From the IMG/VR virus record IMGVR_UViG_3300002854_000123, positions 1-10,257 of that record: a stretch of 10,257 bases of DNA; one strand, written 5' to 3'. Position numbers and translations under genes: made by a program. The notes under the pieces are model-generated. The model was not told where the DNA came from, made no database searches, and saw only the letters and a list, made by a program, of their open reading frames with translations. The stretch is from a virus (lineage: Duplodnaviria; Heunggongvirae; Uroviricota; Caudoviricetes). Every line of letters begins with the position of its first letter. Position 1 is the stretch's first letter. Positions 7,529 through 7,628 of this stretch are shown here, piece after piece.

Positions 7529-7585
7529 ACCGATCCTCTTATAAGTGAAAAATTGCCTGTGCTTGATCTGTTATTATAGAAATAC

Positions 7586-7605
7586 TACTGTATATGTATA
7601 CAGTC
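7586..7605. promoter_or_regulatory. LexA (SOS) box in the divergent promoter region
   Basis: TACTGTATATGTATACAGTC is a near-consensus CTGT-N8-ACAG palindrome. It lies 58 nt upstream of the DinI-like start (minus strand) and 24 nt upstream of the ATG at 7629 (plus strand). A perfect TATAAT on the minus strand (rc of 7573-7578) lies just downstream of the box. Confidence 0.7.
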
Positions 7606-7628
7606 AATAAGTGAGTGAGGGTGTGTTC

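What the first reader, a model, noticed from the sequence alone, without database searches (positions are those of the whole stretch)
7529..7628. Near-consensus LexA box in a divergent promoter: SOS control of the DinI-like gene and possibly of the adjacent two-gene operon
TACTGTATATGTATACAGTC (7586-7605) is a textbook SOS box. On the minus strand it lies just upstream of a perfect TATAAT, consistent with the DinI-like gene being LexA-regulated, as dinI genes are. The same box is only 24 nt upstream of the plus-strand ATG at 7629, so it would also sit over any promoter driving the 79-aa/106-aa operon. These unknown genes may be induced together with prophage induction or DNA damage.
Basis: partly seen in the sequence, partly recalled or inferred. 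Interest (0 to 1): 0.6.

Follow-up and report, generated by a model that had tools for sequence, protein, structure and literature searches.

The report
LexA operator between prophage SOS genes
A real, evolutionarily conserved binding site for the DNA-damage repressor LexA sits on two overlapping back-to-back promoters at the end of a prophage. It should therefore switch on a DinI gene and a small UmuD'-like operon after DNA damage, an arrangement already annotated in phages phiKO2 and P1, so the finding is sound but ordinary.

Summary
TACTGTATATGTATACAGTC (7586-7605) is the only LexA-box-like site in the window, with 18 of 20 matches to the consensus; no shuffle of 200 came within 3 mismatches.

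In 34 related loci the box precedes the 79-aa gene by 11-24 nt. It follows a TTGATC hexamer at 17-18 nt in 32 of the 34. Twenty-one of the 34 have no dinI.

This TTGATC-N17-TACTGT layout is that of the E. coli umuDC promoter and operator. The dinI promoter overlaps the same box from the other side.

The two genes are only partly unknown:
- The 106-aa protein is a shortened UmuD'/HumD-like protein. It starts exactly at the UmuD cleavage site, has an S24 fold, and lacks the catalytic serine.
- The 79-aa protein is a winged-helix protein of unknown role (PHROG 3893).

The same regulatory design is annotated in phiKO2 (DinI-like, LexA site, UmuD-like), P1 (lxr, LexA site, humD) and phi80 (dinL).

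Verdict: a new member of a known kind, of low to moderate interest. All regulation is inferred from sequence; nothing was tested experimentally.

The parts
7586..7605 (.). LexA operator (SOS box) TACTGTATATGTATACAGTC
   Evidence: 18 of 20 matches to the consensus and unique in the window; 0 of 200 shuffles came within 3 mismatches. Conserved in 33 of 34 related loci, mean 1.47 bits per column against 0.26 in the upstream flank.
7563..7568 (+). Inferred -35 (TTGATC) of the plus-strand, umuDC-type promoter
   Evidence: A TTGATC-like hexamer lies 17-18 nt before the box in 32 of 34 loci. E. coli umuDC has the same hexamer and spacing.
7586..7591 (+). Inferred -10 (TACTGT) of the plus-strand promoter, formed by box positions 1-6
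   Evidence: It lies 17 nt after TTGATC and its position is conserved. The expected start site near 7598 would leave a leader of about 31 nt.
7573..7600 (-). Minus-strand promoter P1: TATACA (7600-7595), 16 nt, TATAAT (7578-7573)
   Evidence: The scanner scores it 10 of 12. Its -35 lies inside the box. The -10 is not conserved in relatives.
7579..7607 (-). Minus-strand promoter P2, conserved in relatives: TTGACT (7607-7602), 17 nt, TATTTC (7584-7579)
   Evidence: Relatives read TTGACT-17-TATTTT, and phi80 reads TTGACA-16-TATAAA. The box fills the spacer between the two hexamers.
7265..7528 (-). dinI-like gene (87 aa), with Shine-Dalgarno AGAGGA at 7539-7534
   Evidence: Pfam DinI E 8e-23; PHROG 189. 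It scores 40 bits against the NCBIfam chromosomal dinI equivalog, below the 111-bit cut-off.
7629..7868 (+). 79-aa winged-helix protein gene, with Shine-Dalgarno GAGGG at 7617-7621
7868..8188 (+). 106-aa UmuD'/HumD-like protein gene, translationally coupled to the 79-aa gene (TAATG overlap; Shine-Dalgarno GGGGAGG at 7853-7859 inside the 79-aa gene)
8201..8215 (+). Terminator-like hairpin GGGGGTTATTCCCCC followed by a T-rich run, just after the operon
8255..8282 (.). Bidirectional terminator between the operon and tRNA-Pro
   Evidence: It lies within the stretch shared with phage Eeyore, so it is supplied by the phage attP region.
8293..8369 (-). tRNA-Pro(GGG), the integration site. Phage homology runs to 8349, so the prophage right end (attR) lies inside the tRNA 3' part.

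Best explanation
One LexA dimer bound at 7586-7605 represses two overlapping, divergent sigma-70 promoters at the right end of a lambdoid prophage.

Rightward promoter. This is a umuDC-type promoter, TTGATC-N17-TACTGT, whose -10 is the left arm of the box. It drives a translationally coupled operon encoding a 79-aa winged-helix protein and a 106-aa UmuD'-like protein. The second protein is made already in the 'cleaved' form and has no catalytic serine.

Leftward promoter. Its -35 lies in or next to the right arm of the box. It drives a dinI homologue.

Expected behaviour. After DNA damage, RecA-stimulated LexA cleavage frees both promoters, independently of the prophage's own CI repressor.

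Likely role (inferred, about 0.4). The products act on the host RecA-filament and polymerase V axis. DinI binds RecA filaments and at high levels blocks UmuD processing. The HumD-like protein supplies a processing-independent UmuD' analogue or competitor. The winged-helix protein is an accessory partner of unknown action.

What is shown: the site, its uniqueness, its conservation, the promoter geometry, and the protein folds and families. What is inferred: LexA binding, repression, induction and protein function.
For: - Statistics of the site.
- Conservation: the box sits 11-24 nt before the ATG of the 79-aa gene in 33 of 34 loci from Enterobacter, Escherichia, Citrobacter, Leclercia, Lelliottia, Kosakonia, Erwinia, Cronobacter and Pantoea phages and prophages. 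Synonymous sites in the genes are saturated over the same comparisons (pS about 0.7).
- Promoter: a TTGATC-like hexamer lies 17-18 nt upstream of the box in 32 of 34 loci. E. coli umuDC has the identical layout, TTGATC-17-TACTGTATATAAAAACAGTA, with the box ending 19 nt before the ATG. Several loci share the umuDC box sequence exactly (L018).
- Known relatives: P1 humD, N15 gene 26 and phiKO2 gene 23 all start MGFPSPA and have a LexA box a short distance upstream of the start codon (14-22 nt in P1 and N15). GenBank annotates LexA sites for P1 lxr/humD, phiKO2 gp22(DinI)/gp23(UmuD) and phi80 dinL.
- Experimental precedent: prophage dinI homologues with LexA boxes are induced 14- to 23-fold by nalidixic acid in Salmonella (PMC8072944; PMC3121763).
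- Consensus sequence and DinI activities: PMC6590174.
- Folds and families.
Against: - There is no experimental datum for this locus or for any locus that carries the 79-aa gene.
- The plus-strand -10 (TACTGT) matches TATAAT at only 3 of 6 positions, and the simple promoter scanner did not report it.
- Two candidate minus-strand promoters exist, and the start site is unknown.
- The 106-aa protein fails the curated HumD cut-off (34 bits against 120) and has no Pfam S24 hit. Its structure model is of moderate confidence only (pLDDT 73). Equivalence to HumD or UmuD' in function is therefore doubtful.
- One relative, Klebsiella phage ST15-VIM1phi2.1, carries the cassette behind a retron-type reverse transcriptase gene without a box.
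Confidence: 0.8

Rival explanations
1. The cassette is an SOS-triggered antirepressor module, like 186 Tum, N15 AntC or Gifsy GfoA/GftA. LexA release would produce the winged-helix and pseudo-S24 proteins, which would then inactivate the prophage repressor, for example by pairing with its S24 domain, and so induce the prophage.
Against: - Three complete phages with the cassette (Eeyore, HK140, mEp390) encode ordinary HTH_3 + Peptidase_S24 repressors with GDSM, a lysine and an AG site. They should be induced by self-cleavage.
- tblastn of the 79-aa protein against 50,697 phage records matched no Gifsy or N15 record at E 1e-3. Both of those genomes are in that collection.
- The cassette travels with different immunity regions.
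- Its closest characterised relative, P1 HumD, complements UmuD' (P1 record note).
Confidence: 0.08
2. The box regulates only dinI. The two-gene operon would be transcribed constitutively or from a different promoter, and its closeness to the box would be incidental.
For: The scanner found a good promoter only on the minus strand. LexA control of dinI genes is well documented.
Against: - 21 of 34 loci have the box and the operon but no dinI.
- The 100-nt intergenic region leaves no room for a promoter that escapes the box.
- TTGATC-17/18-box is conserved and equals the umuDC promoter.
Confidence: 0.05
3. The two ORFs are the decaying halves of a former LexA- or CI-like repressor gene split by a frameshift, and are no longer functional.
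For: A winged-helix domain plus an S24-like domain add up to a LexA-like architecture of about 185 aa. The catalytic serine is lost.
Against: - The split is identical in all relatives: 79 codons, a one-base overlap or short gap, and a second gene starting MGFPSPA.
- Both genes are under strong purifying selection: dN/dS 0.03-0.16 for the first; pN 0.18-0.33 against pS 0.75-0.84 for the second.
- 159 representative clusters of the 79-aa family are essentially all stand-alone. The few long forms are frameshift fusions.
Confidence: 0.03
4. The box is a chance palindrome in AT-rich intergenic DNA and does not bind LexA.
For: None beyond the general AT-richness of promoters.
Against:: the site is unique, none of 200 shuffles matched, and it is conserved across genera.
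Confidence: 0.02

Closest known systems
Klebsiella linear plasmid-prophage phiKO2: gp22 (DinI-like), 'lexA binding site', gp23 (UmuD-like); GenBank AY374448
   Same: Divergent dinI-like and UmuD'-like genes share LexA box(es) and have overlapping divergent promoters. They lie just after the tail genes. gp23 starts (V)GFPSPA, like the window's 106-aa protein.
   Different: phiKO2 has no 79-aa winged-helix gene between the box and the UmuD'-like gene. gp23 is the full 127-129-aa HumD type. phiKO2 has two adjacent boxes, whereas the window has one.
Phage P1 lxr and humD, with 'LexA binding site in the regulatory region of lxr and humD'; GenBank AF234172
   Same: One LexA box lies between divergent genes, and one of them is a pre-processed UmuD' analogue that starts MGFPSPA a short distance (22 nt) after the box. 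HumD is recorded as complementing E. coli UmuD'.
   Different: The partner gene is lxr, not dinI. There is no winged-helix gene. HumD is 129 aa, and the window protein scores only 34 bits against the HumD model, whose cut-off is 120.
E. coli umuDC promoter and operator
   Same: It has the TTGATC, 17 nt, TACTGT... box layout, with the box ending about 19 nt before the ATG, and in some relatives the same upstream ATTGATAG motif and an identical box. The second gene product aligns with UmuD from Gly25.
   Different: There is no umuC in the window or in the two related loci with gene-level annotation. The first 24 codons of umuD are absent and a separate 79-aa gene stands in front. The catalytic serine is lost.
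Gifsy-1/2/3 LexA-controlled dinI-antirepressor-irsA operons (Lemire et al. 2011, PMC3121763)
   Same: A prophage dinI homologue lies behind a LexA box, with small co-regulated proteins; damage induction has been shown experimentally.
   Different: The Gifsy genes are co-directional and lie near the replication genes. The partner is an antirepressor needed because Gifsy repressors are not cleaved. Here the genes are divergent, lie at the prophage end, and the related phages have cleavable CI.
E. coli uvrA-ssb shared SOS box
   Same: A single LexA box serves two divergent transcription units (noted in PMC8072944).
   Different: The genes are unrelated and chromosomal, not phage cargo.
Acinetobacter UmuDAb with its small co-repressor DdrR (PMC11332147)
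   Same: A UmuD-family protein works together with a small partner protein encoded next to it. This is the only precedent I found for a small partner of a UmuD-like protein.
   Different: UmuDAb carries its own N-terminal DNA-binding domain and is cleavable. The genes are divergent. No sequence relationship to the 79-aa protein was tested. This is an analogy only.

Membership tests
Gammaproteobacterial LexA operator (SOS box) | A 20-nt palindrome TACTG(TA)5CAGTA with an invariant CTG-N10-CAG | tested here: met
   18 of 20 matches, with CTGT-N8-ACAG intact. Consensus as given in PMC6590174.
Gammaproteobacterial LexA operator (SOS box) | A score within the range of functional operators | tested here: met
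   A rough heterology index of 3.96 from my own matrix of 25 remembered E. coli operators. On the same scale recA scores 4.6 and sulA 3.6, and the next best site in the window scores 13.0. The matrix is approximate and is not the published one.
Gammaproteobacterial LexA operator (SOS box) | Overlap with core promoter elements | tested here: met
   The box overlaps the -10 of the inferred plus-strand promoter and the -35 or spacer of both candidate minus-strand promoters. Start sites were not determined.
Gammaproteobacterial LexA operator (SOS box) | Conservation at orthologous positions | tested here: met
   Present in 33 of 34 loci; 1.47 bits per column against 0.26 in the flank.
Gammaproteobacterial LexA operator (SOS box) | LexA binding, and derepression on DNA damage | not testable with these tools
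   This needs an EMSA or footprint and expression assays.
DinI family | A match to the DinI domain above the curated threshold | tested here: met
   Pfam PF06183, 80.9 bits against a cut-off of 24.2. It does not reach the chromosomal dinI equivalog NF007893 (40 bits against 111), so it is a phage-type family member.
HumD / UmuD' family (pre-processed polymerase V accessory subunit) | The protein starts at the residue after the UmuD Cys24/Gly25 cleavage site, with the GFPSPAxDYxE arm | tested here: met
   MGFPSPAMDYQEQR aligns with UmuD residues 25-37.
HumD / UmuD' family (pre-processed polymerase V accessory subunit) | An S24 (LexA/UmuD) beta fold | tested here: met
HumD / UmuD' family (pre-processed polymerase V accessory subunit) | A score above the curated family threshold | tested here: not met
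   NCBIfam HumD: 34.4 bits against a cut-off of 120. Pfam Peptidase_S24: no hit. HK140 gp28 passes, with 221.8 bits.
HumD / UmuD' family (pre-processed polymerase V accessory subunit) | A Ser-Lys catalytic dyad (Ser60 and Lys97 in UmuD) | tested here: not met
   The segment holding GDSM is deleted. A lysine or arginine is kept near the Lys97 position. A pre-processed form has no need of the dyad.
HumD / UmuD' family (pre-processed polymerase V accessory subunit) | Partners UmuC and supports SOS mutagenesis | not testable with these tools
   No umuC lies in the window or in the two related loci with gene-level annotation. This needs a complementation assay.
LexA-controlled phage antirepressors (Tum, AntC, GfoA/GftA) | Sequence similarity to a known antirepressor | tested here: not met
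   tblastn of the 79-aa protein against all phage records gave 47 hits, none in Gifsy or N15 records. PHROG 3893 has no assigned function.
LexA-controlled phage antirepressors (Tum, AntC, GfoA/GftA) | Association with a non-cleavable prophage repressor | tested here: not met
   The CI proteins of Eeyore, HK140 and mEp390 have HTH_3 + Peptidase_S24 with GDSM and a lysine. The immunity region of this particular prophage lies outside the window.

The most novel reading that the evidence does not exclude
The 79-aa winged-helix protein and the serine-less UmuD'-like protein may be the two domains of a LexA/CI-type regulator, made as separate, translationally coupled polypeptides split exactly at the position of the self-cleavage site. 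Together they could form an SOS-induced complex that RecA cannot inactivate, for one of two purposes. One possibility is a DNA-binding regulator in which the winged helix supplies in trans what UmuDAb has in cis. The other is a device that captures host UmuC, UmuD or RecA filaments during prophage induction. The acidic hydrophobic tail DDxxPV(M/I), which resembles the SSB C-terminal tip, would then be a further docking element.
Probability: 0.15. Interest if true: 0.6.

Novelty: new member of a known kind. Interest (0 to 1): 0.3.

Why it matters
The finding adds a well-supported prophage cassette to the SOS regulon of Enterobacter and its relatives. It shows that the cassette carries the promoter and operator design of umuDC. 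Lysogens would express a phage DinI and a UmuD'-like protein whenever the host senses DNA damage, for instance under fluoroquinolones. That could alter RecA-filament dynamics, polymerase V activity and hence mutagenesis.

The one open point is the conserved 79-aa winged-helix partner. It occurs only in front of UmuD'-like genes and has no assigned function.

Tried and rejected
- Gifsy-type layout. I expected a dinI-antirepressor operon, but the paper shows those genes are co-directional and sit elsewhere in the prophage.
- Natural fusions of the winged-helix and S24 parts. A profile search of 1.84 billion representatives returned a few long proteins. On inspection they are frameshift fusions of the two ORFs.
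- Programmed -1 frameshift at TTC-TAA-TG. Rejected because the last codon varies among relatives (F, H, R, L, Y).
- RNA elements. Rfam found only the tRNA.
- Second LexA site in the window. None was found.
- Primary papers for P1 HumD, the P1 genome and phiKO2. These are not held in the library, so I relied on the GenBank annotations.
- The afdb50 fold library was unavailable.
- A complex prediction for the two proteins could not be run.

Full report
**Setting.** The window is the right end of a lambdoid prophage integrated in tRNA-Pro(GGG) (8293-8369, minus strand) next to a host yejM-like gene. From left to right it holds:
- tail-fibre genes and an invertible segment;
- a DNA invertase gene (5712-6278);
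- a 125-aa ORF;
- a DinI-family gene (7265-7528, minus strand; Pfam E 8e-23);
- a 100-nt intergenic region;
- a 79-aa ORF (7629-7868) and a 106-aa ORF (7868-8188), which overlap by one base;
- terminators and the tRNA.

Homology with phage Eeyore runs to 8349, so the cassette is the last coding module before attR. The exact 106-aa protein is on record only in a JGI metagenome contig. The closest homologues of both proteins are from Enterobacter and E. coli.

**Observation.** TACTGTATATGTATACAGTC is at 7586-7605. It has 2 mismatches to TACTG(TA)5CAGTA and is the only site in the window within 3 mismatches. None of 200 dinucleotide-preserving shuffles yielded one. CTGT-N8-ACAG occurs once against 0.11 expected.

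I built a rough heterology-index matrix from 25 E. coli operators that I recalled from the literature; it is approximate. On that matrix the box scores 3.96, between sulA and recA, and the next best site in the window scores 13.0. The minus-strand TATAAT (7578-7573) and a TATACA -35 inside the box were reported by the promoter scan.

**Comparative evidence.** The module recurs in three sets of sequences:
- 29 E. coli genomes and 41 phage records, including Eeyore, Flotzy, mEp390, HK140, HK225 and phi80;
- 28 loci from one-genome-per-species contigs that encode a relative of the 79-aa protein;
- more distant phages of Erwinia, Cronobacter and Pantoea, at 32-39% identity.

I compared 34 distinct upstream regions. 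In 33 of them a CTG-N10-CAG box ends 11-24 nt before the ATG of the 79-aa gene; the 34th, L028, has a degenerate copy. The box carries 1.47 bits per column, against 0.26 in the flank further upstream. This holds even though synonymous sites of the adjacent gene are saturated between the window and most relatives (pS about 0.7). Only 13 of the 34 loci have dinI upstream; the other 21 have tail-fibre, acyltransferase or other genes there. The box therefore belongs first of all to the two-gene operon.

**Promoter geometry.** In 32 of 34 loci a TTGATC-like hexamer, with at most 1 mismatch, lies 17 or 18 nt before the box. In the window it is at 7563-7568. This makes TACTGT (box positions 1-6) the -10 element.

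E. coli umuDC has exactly this arrangement: TTGATC, 17 nt, TACTGTATATAAAAACAGTA, then 19 nt to the ATG. It also has an upstream ATTGATAG motif that reappears in several loci, and the Leclercia locus L018 even has the identical box. I infer that the operon uses a umuDC-type promoter whose -10 and start site are covered by LexA.

There are two candidate promoters on the minus strand:
- The window's own TATACA-16-TATAAT (7600-7573). Its -10 is not conserved.
- TTGACT-17-TATTT(T/C) (7607-7579). This one is conserved in the dinI-bearing relatives, and phi80 reads TTGACA-16-TATAAA.

Either way the box overlaps the core promoter. The two -10 regions abut, so the divergent promoters overlap and one LexA dimer should block both. 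All of this is inference from sequence; no start site is known.

**The genes.**

In some relatives the second gene is instead a true HumD-family protein of 123-129 aa. HK140 gp28 scores 221.8 bits and is 66% identical to P1 HumD. Both types start MGFPSPA and end in an acidic-hydrophobic tail.

*The 79-aa protein.* It belongs to PHROG 3893, of unknown function. It has no Pfam, NCBIfam or PADLOC match. A confident model (pLDDT 88.9) shows winged-helix topology, with only generic structural neighbours. The family is small, with 159 representatives among 1.84 billion, and is stand-alone. The few long forms are frameshift fusions.

Both genes are under purifying selection. The conserved C-terminus of the first gene contains the Shine-Dalgarno sequence of the second. 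No umuC is nearby.

**Known precedents.** GenBank records already annotate this regulatory design:
- phiKO2 has gp22 (DinI-like) and gp23 (UmuD-like) transcribed divergently from a 'lexA binding site'.
- P1 has a 'LexA binding site in the regulatory region of lxr and humD', and HumD is recorded as complementing UmuD'.
- phi80 has a predicted LexA site upstream of dinL.
- N15 gene 26 has the same kind of box 14 nt before its ATG.

Prophage dinI homologues with LexA boxes are damage-induced in Salmonella. The window's locus differs in two ways. A 79-aa winged-helix gene lies between the operator and the UmuD'-like gene, and the UmuD'-like protein is a shortened, more diverged type.

**Function and rivals.**

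*Most likely role.* DinI stabilises RecA filaments and at high levels blocks UmuD cleavage (PMC6590174). A co-induced, pre-processed UmuD' analogue fits the same axis. The most likely role is therefore modulation of RecA filaments and polymerase V in the damaged lysogen. I put this at about 0.4.

*Antirepressor role.* The Gifsy and 186 systems suggest it, but it is unlikely. Eeyore, HK140 and mEp390 all have cleavable CI repressors, and there is no similarity to known antirepressors.

*Pseudogene reading.* This is contradicted by the invariant gene structure and by the selection acting on both genes.

*dinI-only regulation.* This is contradicted by the 21 loci that lack dinI.

**Verdict.** The arrangement is a new member of a known kind. 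Interest is low to moderate, and the remaining curiosity is the unexplained winged-helix partner.

Noticed in passing
window 2190-2220 and 5630-5660 (segment about 2195-5648), invertase 5712-6278: Gin/Hin-type crossover cores sit in inverted orientation: AAACCTCGGTTTAGGAAGTAGTGCG at about 2195, and its inverted near-copy AAACGTCGGTTTGGGAAGTAGCGC ending at about 5648. One lies inside the tail-fibre gene and the other sits at the start of the opposing tail-fibre C-terminal ORF. They define an invertible host-range segment next to the invertase.
   Followed up: partly
window 4065-4847 (+), flanked by a 26-nt inverted repeat at 3851-3876 / 4936-4961: A DUF2971 protein matches the PADLOC candidate defence family PDC-S31 (E 2e-26). 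It sits in the middle of the invertible tail-fibre segment, between the two convergent fibre/chaperone gene sets, so a possible defence gene rides inside a host-range switch.
   Followed up: partly
window 6548-6925 (-), and 6280-7264: A 125-aa ORF (PHROG 16322, unknown function, coiled-coil-like) is inserted between the invertase and dinI, relative to phage Eeyore. No terminator separates it from dinI, and a bidirectional terminator follows it at 6384-6406. Read-through from the LexA-controlled dinI promoter could therefore express it, although it also has its own promoter-like sites.
   Followed up: partly
window 8170-8188 (C-terminus of the 106-aa protein); also P1 HumD, N15 gp26 and phiKO2 gp23 in L047-L049: UmuD'-like and HumD proteins of both length classes end in a conserved acidic-hydrophobic tail: DDKSPVM, FEDDPIPVI, SGEFDDCPVI. 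From my own knowledge, this resembles the SSB C-terminal tip DDDIPF that docks many repair proteins.
   Followed up: no
L045 (Klebsiella phage ST15-VIM1phi2.1) 1-2057: Here the winged-helix and UmuD'-like cassette lies directly behind, and overlaps, a retron-type reverse transcriptase gene, with no LexA box upstream.
   Followed up: no
window 7563-7568 and L041 306-311 (E. coli umuDC): The conserved -35 hexamer TTGATC contains a GATC Dam-methylation site, both in the phage cassettes and in umuDC. I did not examine whether methylation state affects these promoters.
   Followed up: no
L005 (phage HK225) 2336-2635: HK225 keeps dinI, the box and the winged-helix gene but has lost the UmuD'-like gene. 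Homology ends at the gene junction and an invertase gene follows. This shows recombination exactly at the boundary between the two genes.
   Followed up: no
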